A stretch of 35,832 bases of DNA from Escherichia phage vB_EcoM_APEC, in sequence record MT664721; one strand, given 5' to 3'. The notes under the pieces are model-generated. The model was not told where the DNA came from. It saw only the letters and a list, made by a program, of their open reading frames with translations, and ran no database searches. The translations under genes and the position numbers were made by a program. This document shows positions 5,559-27,780 of the stretch, in pieces; positions within the stretch are counted from its first letter, which is position 1, and each line of letters begins with the position of its first letter.

Positions 5559-8089
5559 TCGTGAGAAAAGAATGTAAACAGGCAGTAGCACAGGCACTCG
5601 GCAAGGCAGAGCTTAGTACTCAGGAATCAATTGATATTGAGCAGCGCATTGCACAGGCTAAAACCAATCTGGCACGTCAAGATATACAAGCTTGGCGTAA
5701 CCTCTCACCTCTTGAACAACTCACCAAAGCAGGTGAACAGGTTGCAAAGGATATTACCGAACAGGCAAGACGCAAGAACATGATTGCGGCTCAGGATATT
5801 CTTATTCAATCACAAAACCTAGCCAAGCTTGACCATCCAACATTGTCATCCATGGAAGTAGTAGACCGACTCATTGCTGCCCATGGTGATATGTCTGGAA
5901 TTCAATCTATTGATTCTAAATCTCGTGCTATTGCTTCAACATATCGGGGCAGACTGGTGGACCTGTATTCAAATGTTAAAGGTGCAATAGGCGTATTTAC
6001 TGACAAGCAGTTGGTTCAGGACATTATCAGGGAGCGTTTTGGACAGAATACAGATAACGCCGTTGCCAAAAAAATATCAGATGAAATGGGCAAAGTCTTT
6101 GATGATATGCGAGAACGATTTAATCGCTCAGGTGGAGACATTGGTAAGCTGGACAATTGGGGATTACCTCAGACCCATGATGCAGCCAAGATGCTTAAAG
6201 CAGGAAAGGATGCATGGGTAAATGCTACAGAGAACATTGTCGATACCTCAAAATATATCCATGAAGACGGAACGTACTATACAGGCGACGAGATCAAGAA
6301 GCTGTTAGAGAATGCCTTCGATACAATCACCAGTGATGGTGCAAACAAGATTGAGATCGGCAGACAGGCAACAGGTGGTGGCACAAGTAAAGTCACTAAT
6401 CGCCACTCTGAGAGTCGTGTAATTCACTTTAAAGATGCAGATGCTTGGCTTGAGTATCAGGCAGACTTTGGTGGTATGCCATTTGTAGACCTTGTAGAAG
6501 CACATATTAATGGCCTGTCTAAGGATATTGCACTGGTTGAAAACCTAGGCAGCAATCCAAAAAACTCAATGAAAATCCTGATGGATGCCGCAGCCAAAAA
6601 AGACTTTGACAAGGGTATCGAAGCCAAAGACACACAGAAGACACGCAAACGCGCTCAAACCATGTTTGACGAACTAACAGGTGGTAATACACCAGAGTCG
6701 GAAGTATTGGCTAATCTTGGCATTGCATACCGTTCTATGAACGTTGCATCCATGCTGGGTGGTACAACATTATCATCTTTGACTGACCAAGCCATGATCA
6801 AAAAGACAGCAGATATTCACGGCATTGCTTTCCGTAAAACCTTTGGTGAACTGCTAACACAGCTTAACCCGAAGAACAAGGCAGATCGTGAACTTGCACA
6901 TAGCTTAGGCTTGGCAACAGAAGAAATGCTCGGCTCACTGGCTCGCTTTGCTGACGATGGTTTAACTTCTGTACACGGTAAAGCTGAGAAACTGGCAAGA
7001 GTTTCAAGTGGCGTGGCTACTCAGGTTATGCGCCTGTCCGGATTAAATGCATTAACTGCCGCATCCAAGGTTGGCTTTAGTAAAATGCTGATGAGCAAGT
7101 ATGGCGAACTTACACGTAACAAGGCTTGGAATGATTTGTCTGAAATGGACAGAGAACTACTAAGCAAAACCGGACTGTCAGAGCGAGCGTGGGAAGTGAT
7201 GCGTCTTGCTGAGCCTGTCATTGACCGCAAAGGCAATAAGCTCATGTCAAACCGTTCAATCTATGAAATACCAGACGATAAGCTTAAGGCGTTTGGCAAT
7301 CCTAAAAAGGTTCGTGATGAAGTGGCTACACAGTTTCAGGCACACTTACTTGACGAGCAAGGCATGGCGGTAGTAGAAGCTGGACTTCGAGAACGTACTT
7401 TCCTGACTGCTGGACTATCCAAAGGTTCAGTGATGGGAGAGATTGTTCGCTCAATGATGCAGTTTAAATCCTTCCCTGCTGCCTTCTTAATGCGTCACGG
7501 TAGCCGAGCAATGAGTAAGCCAACATTAGGCAGTAGGGTAGGCTATGCTGCATCCATTCTGGCAATGACGACAATACTTGGCGGTCTTGTAGTGCAGTTA
7601 AAAGAACTGGCAAATGGTAATGACCCTCAGACCATGTTTGACAGTGAAGACCCGAAAGTAACTGGCTCGTTCTTTGTTCGCTCAGTGGTACAGGGTGGTG
7701 GCCTATCTATTCTAGGTGACATTCTGGTTGCCGGTTCTGATACTTCGGGACGCGGTGTAGACTCATTCTTTGGTGGGCCATTCGCTCAAGATGTTAAATC
7801 TGTTGCTGGTGTTACGCTCGGCAATGCAACGCAGTATTATGAAGACAAAGATACTAATGCAGCTAACGAGCTGTATCGACTCGTAAAAGGCAAGATTCCC
7901 GCCCAAAATCTCTGGTACACTAAAGCAGCGGCGAACCGTTTAATGTTTGATGAAATTCAGGATATTGTCGCACCAGATTACCGTCAGAAGCTTTTAGACA
8001 AGGCGGAACGTGAGCAAAACCGTACAAGATTTTGGGGTGATGATCTTGGTGACATTCAAACACCAGACTTTGAGAAAGTTGTTCAGTAG
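5555..8089 (+). CDS. internal virion / ejection protein, 844 aa
   Basis: Large coupled ORF after the SLT protein; hydrophobic segment (ASILAMTTILGGLVVQL); assigned by position. Confidence 0.5.
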   Translation: MIVRKECKQAVAQALGKAELSTQESIDIEQRIAQAKTNLARQDIQAWRNLSPLEQLTKAGEQVAKDITEQARRKNMIAAQDILIQSQNLAKLDHPTLSSMEVVDRLIAAHGDMSGIQSIDSKSRAIASTYRGRLVDLYSNVKGAIGVFTDKQLVQDIIRERFGQNTDNAVAKKISDEMGKVFDDMRERFNRSGGDIGKLDNWGLPQTHDAAKMLKAGKDAWVNATENIVDTSKYIHEDGTYYTGDEIKKLLENAFDTITSDGANKIEIGRQATGGGTSKVTNRHSESRVIHFKDADAWLEYQADFGGMPFVDLVEAHINGLSKDIALVENLGSNPKNSMKILMDAAAKKDFDKGIEAKDTQKTRKRAQTMFDELTGGNTPESEVLANLGIAYRSMNVASMLGGTTLSSLTDQAMIKKTADIHGIAFRKTFGELLTQLNPKNKADRELAHSLGLATEEMLGSLARFADDGLTSVHGKAEKLARVSSGVATQVMRLSGLNALTAASKVGFSKMLMSKYGELTRNKAWNDLSEMDRELLSKTGLSERAWEVMRLAEPVIDRKGNKLMSNRSIYEIPDDKLKAFGNPKKVRDEVATQFQAHLLDEQGMAVVEAGLRERTFLTAGLSKGSVMGEIVRSMMQFKSFPAAFLMRHGSRAMSKPTLGSRVGYAASILAMTTILGGLVVQLKELANGNDPQTMFDSEDPKVTGSFFVRSVVQGGGLSILGDILVAGSDTSGRGVDSFFGGPFAQDVKSVAGVTLGNATQYYEDKDTNAANELYRLVKGKIPAQNLWYTKAAANRLMFDEIQDIVAPDYRQKLLDKAEREQNRTRFWGDDLGDIQTPDFEKVVQ

Positions 8090-14087: not shown

Positions 14088-14107
14088 AAGCCCCATTATA
14101 GGGGCTT
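14088..14107 (-). terminator. intrinsic terminator between convergent transcription units (U-tract on minus strand)
   Basis: Hairpin AAGCCCC-ATTATA-GGGGCTT; the T-run follows only in the minus orientation; overlaps the last codons of the minus-strand gene 14096..14293. Confidence 0.55.
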
Positions 14108-14293
14108 GATATACATAGACTGGGTTATTTTGCCCATACATGATCTTGACCATTCTCCAAAACAATAGCCATAGAGAACACCATCAACATATTTGTAATA
14201 TAAGAACCCTCTTTCATTATCTATTCCAGCTCTCTCTGGTCTGTAATGCGTAGCGCCGTTAGGTGCATTTTCCTTTATTTCTTGCTCTGTCAT
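14096..14293 (-). CDS. hypothetical protein, 65 aa (paralog of 20887..21078)
   Basis: Shares MT.EEI...AP.GATHY N-terminus and IKPL C-terminus with the plus-strand 63 aa protein; terminal gene of the minus-strand operon. Confidence 0.5.
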   Translation of the reverse strand: MTEQEIKENAPNGATHYRPERAGIDNERGFLYYKYVDGVLYGYCFGEWSRSCMGKITQSMYIKPL

Positions 14294-15718: not shown

Positions 15719-16330
15719 TCAATACATTTCCAAAATTTTGTCTTTAATTGCTTGGGTCTGTTCATTGTAGAGCTTGACCAAGGCTTCTATGTTTTCAATC
15801 TTATCTCTTACATCATTCGCATAAACACGTTTAACAAATAACGGAAGATTCGGGCAGTAGCTTACAAAGTCCATCCATTGAAGTTCTGCACAGGAAATAC
15901 CGCCTATCAGTTGATCTATATGCTCCTTCGGTATTTCACCTGAACGCAAGATAGCAATCTGAGTCTTTGGTGTTTTAACCTTAATCTCTATGCCTCCAAT
16001 AGGGATTTTATCAGGAATGATCAATCCATCTGGTGAATAACCAAATCCCTTATTCTTCACAAAAGAAACCATAGAAACCGTATAGCCTGTCTTTTCCTCA
16101 TACCGCTGACGTGCTTTAGATTCTAGCTGCTGACCTCTTTTAGTCCATTCATTACCCTGAAAAACCTCTGCCGGTTCATGATTAATTAACTCATAAGCCA
16201 GACCATTAATATAGCTCTGAGCGCCTACTCCATTTGCCCGAATGGTTGAAATCTCCGAACAGGTGATTAGACCTAAGCGCAAGTCCAACCACTCAGGAGA
16301 ACCCTGTTCTATTCCGGTGATGATTTGCAT
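15719..16330 (-). CDS. YqaJ-like (lambda-exonuclease-type) recombination exonuclease
   Basis: N-terminal QGSPEWLDLRLGLITCSE resembles the YqaJ family; PD-(D/E)xK-like SPDG...EIK; paired with the ERF gene. Confidence 0.75.
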   Translation of the reverse strand: MQIITGIEQGSPEWLDLRLGLITCSEISTIRANGVGAQSYINGLAYELINHEPAEVFQGNEWTKRGQQLESKARQRYEEKTGYTVSMVSFVKNKGFGYSPDGLIIPDKIPIGGIEIKVKTPKTQIAILRSGEIPKEHIDQLIGGISCAELQWMDFVSYCPNLPLFVKRVYANDVRDKIENIEALVKLYNEQTQAIKDKILEMY

Positions 16331-17028
16331 TATTCACCCTTTTCCAGCTTGGCTAATTTGGTATTTAAAACCCCGACCCAATAATCGAAATCATTTTTAG
16401 GTATCTCGTGCAACTCACAGCCAATATGAGCCTCCATTAATCCTCTTGCTTCTGCACCAAACTGAGATAACTTTTTCTCTATAACAGAAACTTGCTGCGG
16501 TGAAATCGTAATAGCCACCTGCCCATCGTTATCTTCAGCAATAACCAGACCTAGCAATGCTCGCATAGTGTAACGCTGTGCATAACTAATTGCTGAGCCA
16601 TAAGACTGTATATCTGACTTGCTGCCTCCCTTATCCGGCGCAACCTCCATTGAAGACTCTTCGCTGTGCCCACCAACGTGCGAGCAGATGCACGTAACGC
16701 GAGATTTACCATCAGCACATGCTTGGGTAGCCCATCGAATAAACAAGCCATGCTTACGCAATACAGGGTCAATACGGCTTTGTATATACTCAAGCTTTGC
16801 ATACTTAGAGTTATGACCACGACTAGACTTTTCCAAAACTGGTTTTTCCATTTGAAATGCCAGCATTGCCTGATCAAATTGCTGCTTGGCCTGATTGCGC
16901 TGTACACGTTCATGAAGCTCAAGCATCTTTTCAAGTTTCCCCACGTCTGCATCTGGACTGGTTGCAACACGTTCAATAATGCTAATCATCGGGTCAACAT
17001 TATTATTTCTTTCGATTAACTCACTCAT
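16330..17028 (-). CDS. ERF-family single-strand annealing protein
   Basis: SKYAKLEYIQSRIDPVLRKHGL and SYAQRYTMRALLGL resemble conserved ERF regions (P22 Erf type); first gene of the minus-strand operon. Confidence 0.8.
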   Translation of the reverse strand: MSELIERNNNVDPMISIIERVATSPDADVGKLEKMLELHERVQRNQAKQQFDQAMLAFQMEKPVLEKSSRGHNSKYAKLEYIQSRIDPVLRKHGLFIRWATQACADGKSRVTCICSHVGGHSEESSMEVAPDKGGSKSDIQSYGSAISYAQRYTMRALLGLVIAEDNDGQVAITISPQQVSVIEKKLSQFGAEARGLMEAHIGCELHEIPKNDFDYWVGVLNTKLAKLEKGE

Positions 17029-17043
17029 TTTTAACCACCTCTC

Positions 17044-17089
17044 TTGTTGTAATGGATTTAATAATATAATATAGTACGTACTGTTGCAA
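17044..17089. promoter_or_regulatory. divergent sigma70-like promoter region with central 10 bp palindrome AGTACGTACT
   Basis: Plus strand: TTGTAA (17047-17052), 17 nt, TATAGT (17070-17075); also TATAAT at 17065-17070. Minus strand: TTGCAA (17084-17089), about 17 nt, TATTAT-like. Palindrome at 17073-17082 overlaps both. Confidence 0.45.
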
Positions 17090-17101
17090 GAGGAAATTTA
17101 T

Positions 17102-17260
17102 ATGGACAAACAAAACCGTACAAGATTGCAAGTCTCAATTCACAATGAAAAGGAAAAAGACCTTCTCGATAAACTTAAAAAACGAGAGAATTTTTCTGGT
17201 GAAACTAAAGAACTATGGCTGGCTAAGTTAAAAAGTGAGGAGAGTAAAAATGGAAATTGA
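17102..17260 (+). CDS. small ribbon-helix-helix-like protein, 52 aa (tentative)
   Basis: ATG at 17102 with AGAGGA upstream; RTRLQVSIHNEKEKDLLDKLKK resembles an Arc/CopG-type RHH; below track cutoff; overlaps next gene start by 11 nt. Confidence 0.3.
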   Translation: MDKQNRTRLQVSIHNEKEKDLLDKLKKRENFSGETKELWLAKLKSEESKNGN

Positions 17261-17609
17261 TATTCAAATTGACTTAAGACGTGGCGGTTTTGAAGCAATG
17301 CACCCAAATGCAAGGCTATTTAACTTTGATTCTGAAAAAATGGTTTATTTTGGCGAAGGATCGGAAGGCATTAATAGTCAATGGACTACTTGGTGCGCGT
17401 GCATTGGAATGTTGCACTTAGAGACTGGGGAAGCCAAAGCCCAAGCAGTGCCGGAATGCAAATGGTCTAAAAATCAAGGTGGGTTTTACGACACATCATG
17501 CATCAATGCTTTTGTGTTCCCAGAGTCTGATGACACTCCAGAATATCATGAATTTACGCATTGCCCTTTTTGTGGTGGAAAGTTAAGCGAACCTCAGGAG
17601 GCCAAATGA
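17250..17609 (+). CDS. hypothetical protein with C-terminal zinc-ribbon-like motif, 119 aa
   Basis: ATG at 17250 with GAGGAG upstream; C-terminal HCPFCGGKL. Confidence 0.5.
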   Translation: MEIDIQIDLRRGGFEAMHPNARLFNFDSEKMVYFGEGSEGINSQWTTWCACIGMLHLETGEAKAQAVPECKWSKNQGGFYDTSCINAFVFPESDDTPEYHEFTHCPFCGGKLSEPQEAK

Positions 17610-17968: not shown

Positions 17969-18351
17969 ATTTATTTGATGCTGCGGAATATGCAGAAAGT
18001 TTAAGCAATTGCAAGAAACGTCCAGTCGGGTGCAGTCTTGCAATAAATGGTGAAGTGGTTGCCATTGGATTTAATCATGCAGACAGTAAATGTAAATGCA
18101 AAATGCATGAAGAAAATTCAAAGGTTGAACATGCTGAAATATGTTGTCTGAAGCATTACGAGTTTCTAAAACAGGACTGTTCAGAATTGGCAGTGACTTA
18201 CATCTGTTGCCTGAATTGCTCTAAAGAAATCGTAAAGCGTGGCATTAAGAAGGTGTACTACCGCGACCATAGACCCGAAACAGACAAACAGTTAGGCATT
18301 AACTATTTAAAATCACACAATGTAGAGGTATCGAACCAATGGAACAGTTAA
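17965..18351 (+). CDS. cytidine/deoxycytidylate deaminase-like zinc-binding protein
   Basis: HAE motif followed by CCLNC (PC..C-like) at the spacing typical of CMP/dCMP deaminases. Confidence 0.55.
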   Translation: MNLFDAAEYAESLSNCKKRPVGCSLAINGEVVAIGFNHADSKCKCKMHEENSKVEHAEICCLKHYEFLKQDCSELAVTYICCLNCSKEIVKRGIKKVYYRDHRPETDKQLGINYLKSHNVEVSNQWNS

Positions 18352-18866
18352 TTAAACAGATTGAACAATGGGCAGAAGATCGGAATATTATTAATGGGAG
18401 CAAACCAATTGACCAAGCTATGAAACTGTTTTCAGAATTTGGCGAACTCGCAGACAATGTAGGGAAGGGTCGTGATTGCCGCGATGATATTGGCGATGTT
18501 TTTGTTGTGCTGACTATTATGGCGAAGCAATTAAATCTTAACATCAAAGGTATCGAAATTGTTAAATCTGAATCTAAGCCAATATTTAACTTAAAAAATA
18601 TGGTTGTTGACCTAGGGATGTCTTTAAATTATTTTTCTCGTTCAGAAAACCAATTAAACTTAAAAAATGCGGTTAATGAGTTACAAACAATTTCTGCAAT
18701 TTATGGTTATGATTTAAAAGAATGCGTCCAAATCGCCTACAACGACATTAAGGACAGAAAAGGTATTTTATGGAATGGGGTATTTGTAAAAGAAAGTGAT
18801 TTGAGTTATAATGCTTGTGTTGAAGCTTATAGAGAATCGCTAAGTGAGAAAAACACAGAAAATTAA
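18339..18866 (+). CDS. MazG-like nucleoside triphosphate pyrophosphohydrolase
   Basis: FSEFGELADNV...DDIGDVFVVL matches the MazG E..GE...D..GD pattern. Confidence 0.55.
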   Translation: MEQLIKQIEQWAEDRNIINGSKPIDQAMKLFSEFGELADNVGKGRDCRDDIGDVFVVLTIMAKQLNLNIKGIEIVKSESKPIFNLKNMVVDLGMSLNYFSRSENQLNLKNAVNELQTISAIYGYDLKECVQIAYNDIKDRKGILWNGVFVKESDLSYNACVEAYRESLSEKNTEN

Positions 18867-19497
18867 TATTATTGGTAGTAGGTTTGGCAACCTCGTAGTG
18901 CTAAGCGAGGTTGCTGAAAGAAACAAGAATGGTCATATTTTATATACTTGTGAGTGTGATTGTGGAAACAAAAAAAACATACTAGGGTCTTCATTAAGGC
19001 AGAAGCTTACGACTTCTTGCGGCTGTGTTCATAAAAAAAAGATAACAAAACACGGAATGGATGGAACTAAGGTTTATAGAACTTGGGTTGGAATGAGGAA
19101 TAGATGCAACAACCCAAATAATAGAAGATTTCACGATTATGGTGGCAGAGGTATTTCTGTTTGCAATGAGTGGAATAACTCTTTTGATGCGTTTTATTCG
19201 GATATGGGAGAACCAAAGCCAAATCAATCTATAGAACGGATAGACAACTCAAAACCATATTGCAAAGAAAATTGTGTATGGGCAACTAACAAACAACAGT
19301 GTAATAACAGGAGAAGCTCAGTGGTTGTTTATTTTGATGGTATTGAGATGACAGTAGAGGAATACTCAAAAAAAGTAGGCTTGTCAGTATCAGGGGCAAG
19401 AAAAAAAGTGATTCGAGAATTTACTAGATTTGGGAACGTATTCATCAAAGAATCTGACCCAGCCTATGCGGATGCTTGCAAGGAGCTGGGCAAATGA
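18844..19497 (+). CDS. HNH-family-like nuclease motif protein, 217 aa
   Basis: Cys-rich; YRTWVGMRNRCNNP...YGGRGISVCNEW...IERIDNSKPY..NCVWAT..QQCNNRR recalls phage HNH-like proteins; family assignment uncertain, start codon uncertain. Confidence 0.4.
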   Translation: MRKTQKINIIGSRFGNLVVLSEVAERNKNGHILYTCECDCGNKKNILGSSLRQKLTTSCGCVHKKKITKHGMDGTKVYRTWVGMRNRCNNPNNRRFHDYGGRGISVCNEWNNSFDAFYSDMGEPKPNQSIERIDNSKPYCKENCVWATNKQQCNNRRSSVVVYFDGIEMTVEEYSKKVGLSVSGARKKVIREFTRFGNVFIKESDPAYADACKELGK

Positions 19498-19982: not shown

Positions 19983-20013
19983 AGCCCGGTGCCCTCACAC
20001 TGGGTTCTTTTTT
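19983..20013 (+). terminator. rho-independent terminator
   Basis: Imperfect 9 bp stem (AGCCCGGTG / CACTGGGTT with G-U pairs) followed by CTTTTTTG. Confidence 0.5.
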
Positions 20014-20015
20014 GC

Positions 20016-20043
20016 TTGCAAATAATATTAAAGCAATTATAAT
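20016..20043 (+). promoter_or_regulatory. sigma70-like promoter (TTGCAA, 16 nt, TATAAT)
   Basis: -35 TTGCAA at 20016-20021 and consensus -10 TATAAT at 20038-20043; GAGG at 20064-20067 and ATG at 20073 downstream. Confidence 0.5.
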
Positions 20044-20072
20044 AATAAAGCATACTAACAAGTGAGGTTAAA

Positions 20073-20258
20073 ATGTCTGCAAAAGAAAAAGCAAAACTGG
20101 CTTATAAAAAGCACTGTGCTGCGAAACTAAAAATTATCAATATCCGGTTTAACGTAGTTGATCATGAAGACGAAGCGCAAGCCTTTGAACATATCAAGTC
20201 GCAACCAAACCAGAAAAAATACATTCTTAAATTAGTAAAAGAGGACATGATTAAATGA
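20073..20258 (+). CDS. hypothetical basic protein, 61 aa
   Basis: First ORF downstream of the promoter at 20016-20043; GAGG RBS. Confidence 0.45.
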   Translation: MSAKEKAKLAYKKHCAAKLKIINIRFNVVDHEDEAQAFEHIKSQPNQKKYILKLVKEDMIK

Positions 20259-20890
20259 CTTTTCAAATCGGACAGGAAGTGGAAATTATAGGATTAGCAC
20301 CATTTGATGATAGATTCAATGTAGCTATAGGTGATAGAGGTATTATTATTAATATCAACACCAATTCTCATATAAAGATATCCAATCCAAAATTTACGGG
20401 AAGTGCTGCCGGAGAAGGTTTCTTTTATGCCCACAAGTCAAACGTAAGAATTGTTGAATCAAAACCTTTATACGAAGACTCAGGCAGAAACAAACTTAGA
20501 CTCTGGCTTAAGACTGTATGTAAAGAGTATGACTTTACCCTTGAGCAGCTATCATTAAATCTAGGATTCAACGAAAGCTATCTAAGCAATGTAGGCAGCA
20601 AGTCACGTTTTGAAAAACGCGGTGATATTAATTCAGAAGAATATAGAAAACTGGTTAATAATTTCCTTGTGCATGATTACAAAGAATGTAGACATACCAT
20701 GGCTCAGCTTGTTGAACAGATTGATAGCCTTGACGATGATCTGAGAGAGTGCAGGGGAGAAAACTACAAGTGCAATAGATACCTAGAACAAGCAAACAGG
20801 AATACCGAGTACTGGATGAGAAAGTTACCTAAAACCAGATTTCAGGCGTTTAAACTATTTATTAAAATGATGTTTGGAGGCCAGCCATGA
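20255..20890 (+). CDS. hypothetical protein with putative helix-turn-helix segment, 211 aa
   Basis: Central segment FTLEQLSLNLGFNESYLSNV resembles an XRE-type HTH; overlapping-stop coupling. Confidence 0.45.
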   Translation: MTFQIGQEVEIIGLAPFDDRFNVAIGDRGIIININTNSHIKISNPKFTGSAAGEGFFYAHKSNVRIVESKPLYEDSGRNKLRLWLKTVCKEYDFTLEQLSLNLGFNESYLSNVGSKSRFEKRGDINSEEYRKLVNNFLVHDYKECRHTMAQLVEQIDSLDDDLRECRGENYKCNRYLEQANRNTEYWMRKLPKTRFQAFKLFIKMMFGGQP

Positions 20891-21078
20891 CACCTGAAGA
20901 AATCAGAAAGAAAGCGCCAGAGGGAGCGACGCATTATATGAAGTCAATCATATTTTTGGATAGCGTTGACCTAATAACATATTTCAAGTGCGAAAATGGT
21001 AAATTCTTTGAATACTTCGCTCATCATTTCGCTAGGTACGAAACTGGTGTTCACCCAACCTTGATTAAGCCCCTCTAG
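20887..21078 (+). CDS. hypothetical protein, 63 aa (paralog of 14096..14293)
   Basis: Shared N- and C-terminal motifs with the minus-strand 65 aa protein; stop codon lies in the loop of the terminator hairpin. Confidence 0.5.
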   Translation: MTPEEIRKKAPEGATHYMKSIIFLDSVDLITYFKCENGKFFEYFAHHFARYETGVHPTLIKPL

Positions 21079-21090
21079 GGGCTTTTTATT
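21067..21090 (+). terminator. rho-independent terminator
   Basis: Hairpin AAGCCCC-TCTA-GGGGCTT followed by TTTTTATTTG. Confidence 0.65.
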
Positions 21091-21206
21091 TGCCCTTTAT
21101 ATTAGTTTTTCTTATTAATTTTAATTTAATTAATAAAAATTATTTATTTTACTTGTCACAATAAGATTAATAAAATAACCATATTGTTACTACCATCGAG
21201 GATAAG

Positions 21207-21437
21207 ATGATTTTACAAAAGCCTTTATTTTGGCACTGGTGCAAACAAGAAACTGGAAATATAGCATATTTGGCTAGAGAGTTAGGCGTAAGCCGAACAT
21301 TTGTTTCATTTCTTGTTAGTGGTAAAAAGCCCATACCTCTTGAACATATACCGAAGATTAAACAAGTAACTGGTCTAAAAGCCAAAGAATTGCGACCTGA
21401 TGTTTATGAAATTTTTAAGGATGATTTAGATGACTGA
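21207..21437 (+). CDS. Cro/YdaS-like helix-turn-helix DNA-binding protein
   Basis: GNIAYLARELGVSRTFVSFLVSGKKPIP resembles Cro/YdaS-type HTH regulators; first gene after the AT-rich intergenic region, upstream of the replication genes. Confidence 0.55.
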   Translation: MILQKPLFWHWCKQETGNIAYLARELGVSRTFVSFLVSGKKPIPLEHIPKIKQVTGLKAKELRPDVYEIFKDDLDD

Positions 21438-27058: not shown

Positions 27059-27147
27059 AGAAAGCTGCCCTTTATGGTTTGGTTCGATTCTTTTTATGGT
27101 GGTCTTTGTTCTGTTTTTATTATTGGCTTATAAGGTGGCAGGTTGAT

Positions 27148-27780
27148 ATGGAAGATTTTAAAATTTTTGTAAAAGATGAAGCGGCAAGCAAGGAAGCCCA
27201 GGAGTTGTTTTTTGGGGTTGGTTTTAGGGGTGGTAAATATAAAGGTTATGATGGGAATAAGCAAAAAACAGAATATAGGTTGTGGGCAAATATGCTTAAG
27301 AGGTGTTACTCGAGATCATCTCAATTAGCTAGACCATCCTATATTGGTTGTGAGGTCTCTGATAACTTTAAAGAATACGATTACTTTTACGAGTGGTGTC
27401 AAAATCAAACCGGATTCAATGAAAAAGGATTTCAACTTGATAAGGACCTATTAAAAAAAGGGAATAGGATTTACTCTGAGGATTTATGCTTGTTTTTGCC
27501 AAGTGAAATCAATACCGCACTAATACTCAGAAAATCAAAAAGAGGTAAATATCCAATAGGTGTTACTTACTCAGAAAGAGATAGATTATTTGCATCAACA
27601 TTAACTATGTATGGGAAAAACACTCATGTTGGATATTTTAAAGATGAGATGTCGGCATTTTTGAAATACAAGGAGGTTAAAGAGGCCTATCTAAAAGAAC
27701 TCGCCAATCTATACAAGGAACAAATTAACCCTCTTGCGTATCTTGCTTTGTTGAACTACGAGGTATCCATTAATGACTAA
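27148..27780 (+). CDS. hypothetical protein with HNH-like motif, 210 aa
   Basis: ATG at 27148 with AAGGTGG upstream (the track's longer version begins in a hydrophobic out-of-context stretch); YRLWANMLKRC motif similar to the 18844 gene product. Confidence 0.45.
   Translation: MEDFKIFVKDEAASKEAQELFFGVGFRGGKYKGYDGNKQKTEYRLWANMLKRCYSRSSQLARPSYIGCEVSDNFKEYDYFYEWCQNQTGFNEKGFQLDKDLLKKGNRIYSEDLCLFLPSEINTALILRKSKRGKYPIGVTYSERDRLFASTLTMYGKNTHVGYFKDEMSAFLKYKEVKEAYLKELANLYKEQINPLAYLALLNYEVSIND

What the first reader, a model, noticed from the sequence alone, without database searches (positions are those of the whole stretch)
17029..17260. Divergent early control region with a perfect 10 bp palindrome and a possible RHH regulator
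The 73 bp gap between the ERF operon (minus) and the early operon (plus) holds sigma70-like -35/-10 elements for both directions. The palindrome AGTACGTACT (17073-17082) overlaps the plus -10 and sits beside the minus -35, as an operator would. The first plus-strand ORF (17102-17260, 52 aa) has a ribbon-helix-helix-like N-terminus, a plausible autoregulator.
Basis: partly seen in the sequence, partly recalled or inferred. Interest (0 to 1): 0.55.

Follow-up and report, generated by a model that had tools for sequence, protein, structure and literature searches.

The report
Phage divergent early promoters, small regulator
This is an ordinary compact control region of an uncultured Acinetobacter-type phage: two overlapping back-to-back host-type promoters and a real 52-residue first gene that may be a small repressor, while the 10 bp palindrome has no support as its binding site.

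Summary
These are the 73 bp gap, AGTACGTACT at 17073-17082, one sigma70-like promoter on each strand, and a 52-aa ORF with a good ribosome-binding site.

The two promoters are the best-supported part. Their geometry is kept in six diverged lineages, and the phage has no RNA polymerase or integrase gene of its own.

ORF52 is a real gene under purifying selection. Against the most diverged close relative it shows 13 synonymous changes and 1 conservative replacement. It is not an orphan: it belongs to an unannotated family that always sits first in the operon divergent from ERF (phiAC-1 gp76 and four metagenomic relatives). In another lineage a Cro-like HTH regulator fills that slot.

The ribbon-helix-helix (RHH) idea rests only on a residue pattern. 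Pfam, NCBIfam, PDB, hhalign and two AlphaFold runs gave no support.

The palindrome is not statistically unusual (P about 0.04-0.15). It has no second copy, is absent from the other lineages, and is broken by C17077T in three of seven near-identical genomes. An autoregulatory operator remains plausible but untested.

Verdict: a routine regulatory region with a new member of a known kind, of low to moderate interest.

The parts
16330..17028 (-). ERF-family single-strand annealing protein, first gene of the leftward early operon
   Evidence: phrog_155 E 3e-43. PF04404 on the orthologue. 40 of 47 variable sites are at codon position 3.
15719..16330 (-). YqaJ-type exonuclease, second gene of the leftward operon
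   Evidence: phrog_149 E 5.5e-26. PF09588 on the orthologue.
17029..17101 (.). 73 bp intergenic control region holding both promoters and both ribosome-binding sites
   Evidence: Read directly. 27% G+C. Only 17041-46 and 17077 vary among relatives that differ at 17-27% of synonymous sites.
17047..17075 (+). Rightward promoter P(+): TTGTAA, 17 nt spacer, TATAGT; inferred start near 17082
   Evidence: Scan, 9 of 12. TTG and the -10 block are invariant in position in six lineages. The start site is inferred, not mapped.
17061..17089 (-). Leftward promoter P(-): TTGCAA (17089-84), 17 nt spacer, TATTAT (17066-61); inferred start near 17054
   Evidence: Scan, 9 of 12. The complement of the -35 TTG (CAA; AA in every lineage) and the -10 block are at the same position in the relatives. 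The start site is inferred.
17073..17082 (.). Perfect 10 bp palindrome AGTACGTACT, the candidate operator. It spans the end of the P(+) -10 to about +1 and lies in the P(-) spacer next to its -35.
   Evidence: Not rarer than chance. C17077T in L001, L004 and L012. Not conserved in other lineages.
17090..17093 (+). Shine-Dalgarno GAGG for ORF52, 8 nt before the ATG
   Evidence: Read directly. A purine-rich block is at the same place in all relatives.
17035..17042 (-). Shine-Dalgarno AGAGGTGG for ERF, 6 nt before the ATG
   Evidence: Read directly.
17102..17260 (+). ORF52, a 52-aa basic protein and first gene of the rightward early operon. It is the shortest member of an unannotated family that includes phiAC-1 gp76, and a candidate small repressor.
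   Evidence: Variable sites fall at codon position 3. 13 synonymous changes against 1 replacement versus L097. BLASTP to the positional orthologue in L024, E 4e-5. Family alignments A10 and A12 and family HMM hits.
17250..17609 (+). Second gene of the rightward operon (119 aa, C-terminal zinc-ribbon-like CPFCGG). Its start overlaps the ORF52 stop by 11 nt.
   Evidence: Only weak PHROG hits.
20073..20258 (+). ORF61, a possible distant paralogue of ORF52. It is the first gene of the next rightward operon.
   Evidence: Family HMM E 0.006-0.03. hhalign P 0.002, in register. Preceded by terminator 19983-20006 and promoter 20016-20043, 10 of 12.

Best explanation
The 73 bp gap is the early control region of a virulent-looking phage. 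The phage has a T7-like structural module, no integrase and no RNA polymerase of its own, and a phiAC-1-like early module.

Two sigma70-type promoters overlap back to back. Their -10 hexamers are 3 bp apart, and each -35 lies downstream of the other promoter's start, so one RNA polymerase excludes the other. P(-) drives ERF, the exonuclease and six small genes. P(+) drives ORF52 and then nucleotide-metabolism genes, up to the terminator at 19983-20006.

ORF52 is a real protein occupying the 'cro slot'. I propose it is a small dimeric DNA-binding protein, possibly of strand-helix-helix (RHH-like) type. In this model it accumulates early and binds within the promoter overlap, turning down both early promoters. 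This is negative feedback, as Arc does at Pant/Pmnt and Cro does at PR/PL. In this lineage the palindrome 17073-17082 is the best candidate site, and its size fits one dimer.

Shown: the sequence features, conservation of promoter geometry, coding selection on ORF52, family membership and gene position. Inferred: the transcription start sites, DNA binding, the fold, and the operator identity.
For: Promoters:
- Found by scan. Both-strand occurrence has P about 0.03.
- In the six-lineage alignment the invariant columns are the -35 TTG of P(+), the twin -10 block, the complement of the -35 TTG of P(-), and the SD/ATG.
- 17047-17133 is unchanged in L097 although ERF carries about 40 synonymous changes.
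- No phage RNA polymerase or integrase was found among the proteins scanned.

ORF52 is a gene:
- Strong SD.
- 7 of 7 variable sites are at codon position 3.
- 13 synonymous changes against 1 replacement versus L097.

Family and slot:
- L024 protein, BLASTP E 4e-5.
- L098, L099, gp76, P0004 and P0005 align with a conserved hydrophobic alternation, an [ND]F[SA] turn and two helix-prone segments.
- All are the first gene divergent from ERF.
- A sister lineage has a 56-aa HTH regulator in that slot (phrog_18104, E 8e-11).
- The next two rightward operons also begin with small candidate DNA-binding proteins: ORF61, and the YdaS-like HTH at 21207 (PF15943, E 2e-11).

Other points:
- ORF52 has a net charge of +3 (counted from the sequence).
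- The palindrome covers the P(+) -10/+1 and abuts the P(-) -35.
- Precedent: Arc represses the divergent overlapping promoters Pant and Pmnt (PMC2724298).
Against: - No RHH or other DNA-binding family matches ORF52 or any relative. hhalign against Arc, Mnt, CopG, NikR, AmrZ, RelB and ParD gave 0.75% probability.
- The AlphaFold models are low-confidence and all-helical (pLDDT 70 and 60). Foldseek found nothing.
- The palindrome is within chance expectation and single-copy. It is not conserved in the four other lineages.
- Its centre is mutated in three near-identical genomes that encode the same protein.
- Arc and CopG operators have two boxes a helical turn apart, bound by a dimer of dimers. 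That layout is not seen here.
- By my own count from the sequences, the N-domains of some family members (gp76, L099) are neutral or acidic.
- The C-terminal parts of the long members look like repeated helical hairpins. MAFFT can align ORF52 to one such repeat, so a purely helical, non-DNA-binding fold is possible.
Confidence: 0.4

Rival explanations
1. The promoters are real, but the palindrome is incidental and ORF52 is not a transcription factor. It would be a small helical early protein, for example a host-takeover or partner-binding coiled-coil protein. Early expression would then be set by promoter strength, polymerase competition at the overlapping promoters, and the terminators.
For: - A 10 bp palindrome is expected in 4-15% of such gaps.
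- It is absent from the other lineages and broken in L001, L004 and L012.
- The AlphaFold models are helical.
- There is no DNA-binding family hit.
- Long family members carry coiled-coil repeats, and ORF52 can be aligned to such a repeat.
- The PDB profile hits are coiled coils only.
Against: - The same slot holds a bona fide HTH regulator in a sister lineage.
- Three successive rightward operons start with small proteins of regulator size.
- ORF52 is basic and has a conserved strand-like alternation before helix A.
- The whole 55 nt promoter core, including the palindrome, is far more conserved than synonymous sites.
Confidence: 0.35
2. The palindrome is an operator, but for a different protein. 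Candidates are the ORF61 paralogue, the YdaS/Cro-like HTH at 21207-21437, or a host factor. That protein would shut off both early promoters later in infection.
For: - Two further small candidate DNA-binding proteins are encoded downstream.
- The palindrome's position would block both promoters whoever binds it.
Against: - No related site is found at the promoters of those genes or anywhere else in the window.
- Half-site centres 5 bp apart are too close for a typical HTH dimer (general knowledge).
- The conservation problems are the same as for the main explanation.
Confidence: 0.12
3. The palindrome is a target or by-product of DNA modification or cleavage, not of transcription control. It could be a site for a methyltransferase, a restriction enzyme or a homing endonuclease. 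The C to T change at its central CpG would then be a 5-methylcytosine deamination footprint.
For: - The motif contains GTAC twice, ACGT and TACGTA.
- The only variable base in a 159-nt invariant island is the CpG cytosine.
- Palindromes are under-represented overall in the window (18 against 39).
- Two HNH endonuclease genes are present.
Against: - GTAC and ACGT are not avoided in the window (observed/expected 0.86 and 1.01).
- No methyltransferase gene was seen among the proteins scanned.
- One transition is too little evidence.
Confidence: 0.05

Closest known systems
Phage P22 immI region: Arc (53 aa, RHH) at the divergent overlapping promoters Pant/Pmnt, with Mnt as the longer paralogue carrying a C-terminal coiled coil
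   Same: - A repressor-sized (52 against 53 aa) first gene of an operon whose promoter overlaps a divergent promoter.
- One site could silence both promoters (PMC2724298).
- The family has short members with the N-domain only, and long members with an added coiled coil. This resembles Arc against Mnt (Mnt architecture from my own knowledge).
- Strand-like alternation, then helix, turn, helix, in nearly the same register as Arc. hhalign aligned ORF52 7-25 to Arc 8-26, without significance.
   Different: - No detectable sequence or profile similarity and no predicted strand.
- The Arc operator is two TAGA boxes 5 bp apart, bound by a dimer of dimers. Here there is one 10 bp palindrome.
- There is no antirepressor gene and no lysogeny module.
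- The operons controlled are recombination and nucleotide-metabolism genes.
Lambda-type Cro at PR/PL
   Same: - First gene of the rightward early operon, facing a leftward operon that carries the recombination genes (exonuclease plus annealing protein).
- Replication genes (O-like initiator, DnaB) lie further right.
- In lineage L007/L006 the slot is filled by a Cro-like HTH.
   Different: - No cI or PRM lies between the promoters, which overlap within 73 bp.
- There are no triple operators.
- ORF52 has no HTH signature.
- The replication genes are in a separate, terminator-bounded operon with its own HTH first gene.
MetJ metbox and CopG symmetric element (RHH operators)
   Same: - A short perfect palindrome with a central ACGT. 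The metbox is AGACGTCT (own knowledge), and here the site is AGTACGTACT. An 8-10 bp dyad is the footprint of one RHH dimer.
- Self-palindromic 4-bp boxes occur in both: TGCA in CopG, GTAC here.
   Different: - Known RHH operators use two or more sites about a helical turn apart with cooperative binding.
- Here the two GTAC boxes are 4 bp apart, and no further copy exists.
Bacterial bidirectional promoters arising from -10 symmetry (Warman et al. 2021, as summarised in PMC10268837)
   Same: Two promoters on opposite strands share one AT-rich -10 region, so RNA polymerase can engage in only one orientation at a time.
   Different: That class is defined by divergent starts 7-25 bp apart, most often 18 bp, with reciprocally overlapping -10 positions. 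Here the -10 hexamers are adjacent, not overlapping. The inferred starts are about 28 bp apart, and each promoter has its own -35 TTG.
Acinetobacter phage phiAC-1 gp75-gp76 region (NC_028995)
   Same: - Same module: ERF (67.5% identical) and exonuclease facing gp76, dCMP deaminase and dUTPase across a 75 bp gap.
- gp76 belongs to the ORF52 family.
   Different: - gp76 is 90 aa with a coiled-coil tail.
- There is no GC-containing palindrome. The aligned segment is AATTAAATTC.
- phiAC-1 is a myovirus related to the AP22 group (PMC5795418), so only the early module is shared.
- gp76 is annotated as hypothetical.

Membership tests
Ribbon-helix-helix (Arc/MetJ/CopG) superfamily | Significant sequence or profile match to an RHH family | tested here: not met
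   - Pfam (which includes the Arc, RHH_1 and related families), NCBIfam and PDB sequence searches gave no hit for ORF52 or any of its 7 relatives, even at E up to 10.
- hhalign of the family N-domain against a recalled RHH set gave probability 0.75%.
Ribbon-helix-helix (Arc/MetJ/CopG) superfamily | Strand-helix-helix topology in about 45 residues | tested here: inconclusive
   - The AlphaFold monomer models are low-confidence. The single-sequence model has H3-32 and H36-50 (pLDDT 70). The model from a 5-sequence alignment has H3-11, H16-26 and H33-49 (pLDDT 60).
- No strand was predicted. The RHH strand forms only in the dimer, which could not be modelled here.
Ribbon-helix-helix (Arc/MetJ/CopG) superfamily | N-terminal segment with alternating buried hydrophobic and exposed polar residues, and a G/N-x-S/T turn capping helix B | tested here: inconclusive
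   The pattern is present and conserved in 7 family members (K-x-V-x-F-x-L, [ND]F[SA]). It is a pattern read by eye, with no statistical test.
Ribbon-helix-helix (Arc/MetJ/CopG) superfamily | Dimer that binds DNA through the paired strands | not testable with these tools
   Needs EMSA or footprinting, or a solved structure or multimer model.
Arc/CopG-type operator | Two inverted 4-bp boxes 5 bp apart (13-bp symmetric element) bound by a dimer of dimers, overlapping the promoter | tested here: not met
   There is a single 10 bp palindrome with GTAC boxes 4 bp apart, and no second copy at up to 1 mismatch in the window. The definition is taken from PMC2724298. The overlap with the promoter is met.
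Cro-type early repressor (lambdoid) | First gene of the rightward early operon, divergent from the recombination operon | tested here: met
   Gene order. The same order is seen in phiAC-1, L024, L098 and L099.
Cro-type early repressor (lambdoid) | Helix-turn-helix DNA-binding fold | tested here: not met
   ORF52 has no HTH family hit. The HTH hit belongs to the non-homologous protein in the same slot of L007.
Sigma70-type promoter pair | -35 and -10 hexamers with a 16-18 bp spacer, correctly oriented before each operon | tested here: met
   Both promoters score 9 of 12 with 17 bp spacers. P about 0.03 by chance. Positions are conserved in six lineages. Transcription start sites are not mapped.
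Bidirectional promoter (-10 symmetry class) | Divergent start sites 7-25 bp apart with reciprocally overlapping -10 positions | tested here: not met
   The -10 hexamers at 17061-66 and 17070-75 do not overlap, and the inferred starts are about 28 bp apart. The definition is from PMC10268837. The starts are inferred only.
ORF52/gp76 family (unannotated, defined here) | Sequence similarity together with a conserved position as the first gene divergent from ERF | tested here: met
   - BLASTP against the L024 protein, E 4e-5.
- The family HMM recovers all members at E 1e-20 or better. These are largely the sequences it was built from.
- Synteny.
- The direct ORF52 to gp76 link is weak on its own (hhalign 5%) and rests on the bridging members L024 and L099.

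The most novel reading that the evidence does not exclude
ORF52, phiAC-1 gp76 and their relatives are a previously unrecognised family of minimal phage transcription regulators. Their fold would be either a very divergent RHH or a new small DNA-binding fold. They come in Arc-like short forms and Mnt-like long forms with a coiled coil. They would replace Cro in a cI-less early switch, where a single dimer-sized site inside two interlocked promoters shuts off both early operons at once.
Probability: 0.3. Interest if true: 0.4.

Novelty: new member of a known kind. Interest (0 to 1): 0.25.

Why it matters
If ORF52 is the repressor, this would be one of the most compact bidirectional early switches known. 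It would consist of 73 bp, two interlocked promoters, one dimer-sized site and a 52-residue protein. Such a unit could serve as a synthetic-biology part.

It would also give a function to a small family of 'hypothetical' first genes in Acinetobacter-type phages, including phiAC-1 gp76.

As it stands, the finding adds only a routine annotation. It marks likely host-type early promoters and a conserved small early gene in an uncultured phage. It does not open or settle a larger question.

Tried and rejected
- **Direct homology for ORF52.** The word-indexed search and a full phmmer run over 1.84 billion representatives found only its own 96% cluster, plus one low-complexity hit. tblastn against phage records found nothing.
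- **Family libraries.** Pfam, PHROGs and NCBIfam gave nothing beyond two E about 0.002 hits to PHROGs of unknown function.
- **Solved structures.** PDB sequence and profile searches returned only coiled-coil or chance hits.
- **Structure prediction.** Both AlphaFold jobs were low-confidence.
- **Pairwise tests that failed.** ORF52 against ORF61 and against gp76 by BLASTP gave no alignment. ORF52 against the gp76 family by hhalign gave 5%.
- **RNA explanations rejected.** There is no Rfam match. The region folds no better than shuffles (z 0.73).
- **Restriction avoidance of GTAC or ACGT** was not seen.
- **A shared TAGTAC/AGTAC operator half-site** across phages was suggested by Shewanella phage ZP9. 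I judged it unreliable. The closer relatives lack it, and TAGTAT/TAGTAC resemble -10 hexamers.
- **Failed or uninformative searches.** The first metagenome pattern scan failed because I wrote 12 N instead of 10. The corrected scans found only near-identical contigs. L096 was a false positive, a 2OG-oxygenase-like protein. The MD-2021a and Pseudomonas phage AF loci carry ERF inside long operons and say nothing about the control region.

Full report
**Observation.** The sequence is as described.
- The ERF gene (16330-17028, minus strand) starts at 17028, and a 52-codon ORF starts at ATG 17102. That leaves a 73 bp gap of 27% G+C.
- AGTACGTACT occupies 17073-17082.
- The consensus scan reports TTGTAA-17-TATAGT (17047-17075, plus strand) and TTGCAA-17-TATTAT (17089-17061, minus strand), each 9 of 12.
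- The palindrome therefore covers the last three bases of the plus -10 through about +1. It lies in the spacer of the minus promoter, one base from its -35.
- ORF52 has GAGG 8 nt before its ATG. Its stop overlaps the start of the next ORF (17250).

**Is it more than chance?**
- Perfect palindromes of 10 bp or more are not rare. The window has 18, against 39+-6 expected from a first-order Markov model. That gives about 0.04-0.08 expected per 73 bp.
- In random 73-mers of the gap's own composition, 15% contain one.
- The motif has no second copy. The only 1-mismatch match lies inside a structural gene at 7390.
- GTAC and ACGT are not avoided in the window.
- Promoter-like sites on both strands of a random 73-mer occur in about 3% of trials.

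**Context.**
- The window is a nearly complete uncultured phage genome of about 35.8 kb.
- It carries a T7-like structural module: portal, scaffold or protease, major head protein, tail tubular protein, internal virion proteins and large terminase.
- It also has an O-like initiator and a DnaB helicase.
- No integrase, CI-type repressor or phage RNA polymerase was found among the proteins scanned.
- Nucleotide similarity to known phages is minimal.
- The closest early module is that of Acinetobacter phage phiAC-1, whose ERF is 67.5% identical. Related contigs include one binned with Acinetobacter bereziniae. The host is probably Acinetobacter or a relative.

**Operon layout.**
- The leftward operon is ERF, a YqaJ-type exonuclease and six small genes.
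- The rightward operon is ORF52, two unknown genes, dCMP deaminase, a MazG-like enzyme, an HNH endonuclease and small genes. It ends at a terminator at 19983-20006.
- Two further rightward operons follow. One starts with ORF61 at 20073. The other starts with a YdaS/Cro-like HTH at 21207 (PF15943, E 2e-11) and follows a terminator at 21067-21084.

**The promoters are the best-supported part.** Divergent operons 73 bp apart must be started from this gap or very near it. I aligned the gap from six lineages: the window, L097, phiAC-1, L024, L098 and L099. Their ERF proteins are 57-100% identical to the window's.
- The invariant columns are the TTG of the plus -35, a T-A-rich block covering both -10 hexamers, the complement of the minus -35 TTG, and the SD/ATG regions.
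- By my reading of that alignment, both promoters keep 17 bp spacers in every lineage. They also keep the same distances to the two start codons.
- Several relatives have -35 hexamers with only the TTG matching. That is why the scan tool does not list them.
- The two -10 hexamers are 3-4 bp apart on opposite strands. Each -35 lies beyond the other promoter's inferred start, and the starts are about 28 bp apart. The two polymerase footprints must therefore exclude each other.
- This is close to, but outside, the defined 'bidirectional promoter' class, which has starts 7-25 bp apart and most often 18 bp (PMC10268837).

**Constraint within close relatives.**
- Genomes about 5-6% diverged (L001-L004, L012, L097) differ from the window at 17% of ERF third codon positions.
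- The gap nevertheless varies only at 17041-46 and at 17077. The stretch 17047-17133 is identical in L097.
- The whole promoter core is under strong constraint. The constraint is not specific to the palindrome.

**ORF52 is a real gene.**
- Among close relatives, 7 of 7 variable sites inside it are third codon positions.
- Against L097 I count 14 differences, of which 13 are synonymous and one gives D23E. The changes include two Leu codons rewritten at two positions each.

**ORF52 is not an orphan.**
- Direct searches found only its own 96% cluster.
- Walking along ERF homologues and looking at the first gene divergent from ERF found relatives.
  - The L024 protein (88 aa) matches ORF52 by BLASTP at E 4e-5 over helix A, the turn and helix B: FSGETKELWLAKL against FAKETKDMWMSRL.
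  - L098 (63 aa) has ENFSKVTKLFWAEKL.
  - L099 (133 aa) combines FSGLTKEL with the gp76-like N-terminus KQVSFNL..SEAY.
- These members bridge ORF52 to phiAC-1 gp76 and its relatives P0004 and P0005. On their own, those are not significantly similar to ORF52.
- The family shares a short basic N-terminus and a segment with conserved alternating hydrophobic residues. It also shares a helix-prone stretch, an [ND]F[SA] turn and a second helix-prone stretch.
- Long members add one or two coiled-coil units ending in IExKIxQxE. ORF52 is the N-domain alone.
- In L098 the tail lies in a separate reading frame.

**Is it a ribbon-helix-helix protein?**
- The pattern fits. ORF52 residues 8-14, 16-29, 30-33 and 34-48 match, almost residue for residue, the strand, helix A, turn and helix B of Arc as I recall them.
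- No test supports it.
  - No Pfam, NCBIfam or PDB sequence hit for any family member.
It did align ORF52 7-25 with Arc 8-26.
  - AlphaFold monomer models are weak and all-helical (pLDDT 70 and 60). Foldseek found nothing.
- The RHH strand forms only in the dimer, and I could not model a dimer. The fold question stays open.
- MAFFT can also align ORF52 to an internal helical-hairpin repeat of P0004 and P0005. A purely helical protein is therefore a live alternative.

**Is ORF52 a regulator?** The evidence is positional.
- In lineage L006/L007/L008 (ERF 62-64% identical), the slot is occupied by a non-homologous 56-aa Cro-like HTH (phrog_18104, E 8e-11).
- In this phage each of the three rightward operons begins with a small protein. 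These are ORF52, ORF61 and the YdaS-like HTH.
- ORF61 is a weak candidate paralogue. The family HMM gives E 0.006-0.03, and hhalign gives P 0.002 in register.
- The overall layout is lambdoid PL/PR without cI. Recombination genes run leftward, and a small first gene followed later by replication genes runs rightward.
- On this basis I put 'small DNA-binding repressor feeding back on the early promoters' at roughly 45%.

**Is the palindrome its operator?**
- The position is right for blocking both promoters.
- An 8-10 bp dyad is the size one RHH dimer covers. The MetJ box AGACGTCT, from my own knowledge, even shares the central ACGT.
- Against this:
  - The palindrome is not improbable by chance.
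  - It has no partner site a helical turn away, as Arc and CopG operators do (PMC2724298).
  - The aligned segment in the other four lineages is not palindromic: AATTAAATTC, AATAAATAAA, ACTTGGAGGT and ACTAAGCTAA.
  - L024 instead has TGGTGACCA on the other side of the -10 block.
  - Three near-identical genomes from different samples carry AGTATGTACT while encoding exactly the same protein.
- A different operator in each lineage is expected if the exposed strand residues differ, and they do differ. The non-conservation therefore weakens the idea but does not refute it.
- I put the operator assignment at about 30%.

**Comparison with known systems.** In function, the nearest models are Arc at Pant/Pmnt and Cro at PR/PL. 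Membership in either protein family is not established: the profile tests failed and the structure test was inconclusive. The protein family itself is unannotated; phiAC-1 gp76 is listed as 'hypothetical protein'.

**Verdict.** This is a routine, compact, divergent early promoter region with a conserved small first gene of unknown fold. The regulatory reading is reasonable but unproven, and the emphasis on the 'perfect palindrome' is not warranted by statistics or conservation. Interest is 0.25. If the regulator idea holds, it is a new member of a known kind of system.

Noticed in passing
window 19983-20258: A terminator (19983-20006) is followed by the strongest promoter match in the region, TTGCAA-16-TATAAT (10 of 12, 20016-20043). 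Next comes ORF61 (20073-20258), a possible distant paralogue of ORF52. It has its own strand-like IINIRFNV segment and a basic N-terminal extension. TAAAGCA is repeated 16 bp apart on either side of the -10.
   Followed up: partly
window 21067-21437: A terminator (21067-21084), an AT-rich gap and a promoter-like site (21148-21176) precede a 76-aa YdaS/Cro-like HTH (PF15943, E 2e-11). This protein heads the replication operon (O-like initiator, DnaB). All three rightward operons thus start with a small candidate regulator.
   Followed up: partly
window 18339-19497; L001 7334-7801: The early operon is mosaic. The window has a MazG-like pyrophosphatase and an HNH endonuclease where the 95%-identical relatives L001-L003 have a dUTPase. 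A second HNH gene lies at 27079-27780.
   Followed up: no
window 14096-14293 (-) and 20887-21078 (+): Two paralogous small proteins (phrog_6698; MTEQEIKENAPNGATHY... and MTPEEIRKKAPEGATHY...) are each the last gene of an operon. One ends the leftward operon, the other the second rightward operon.
   Followed up: no
whole window: Perfect palindromes of 10 bp or more are half as frequent as expected (18 against 39+-6). GATC is at 0.51 of expectation, and TCGA, AATT, AGCT and GGCC are at 0.66-0.73. This is the usual signature of restriction avoidance.
   Followed up: partly
window 17077: C17077T, the CpG cytosine at the centre of the palindrome, is the only variable base in a 159-nt invariant island (16976-17133) among the four 95%-identical relatives L001-L004. 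L097 adds one further change, at 16978. The change also creates TAGTAT, a better -10-like hexamer 2 nt downstream of TATAGT.
   Followed up: partly
L098 2053-2419 (-): In the Acinetobacter bereziniae-binned contig, the ORF52-family gene stops after 63 aa. The coiled-coil tail continues in another frame. This is either an assembly frameshift or a natural split into N-domain and tail.
   Followed up: no
L006 231-366 / L007 2646-2780: In the lineage with a Cro-like HTH in the slot, the 135 bp gap carries TAAGAT three times and the inverted repeat TAAAGT-N6-ACTTTA. These are candidate operators for that HTH.
   Followed up: no
L014 1828-1903 (Shewanella phage ZP9): A 76 bp gap between a divergent small gene and the ERF operon contains GTACTA-GAT-TAGTAC and the 8 bp palindrome TAGTACTA. 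These share the AGTAC half-site with the window. The first gene there is an unrelated acidic 63-aa protein.
   Followed up: partly
L097, L099: Phage-sized contigs carrying this module are binned into MAGs labelled Erysipelothrix sp. and Streptococcus sp. These are probably binning errors, given the Acinetobacter-like relatives.
   Followed up: no
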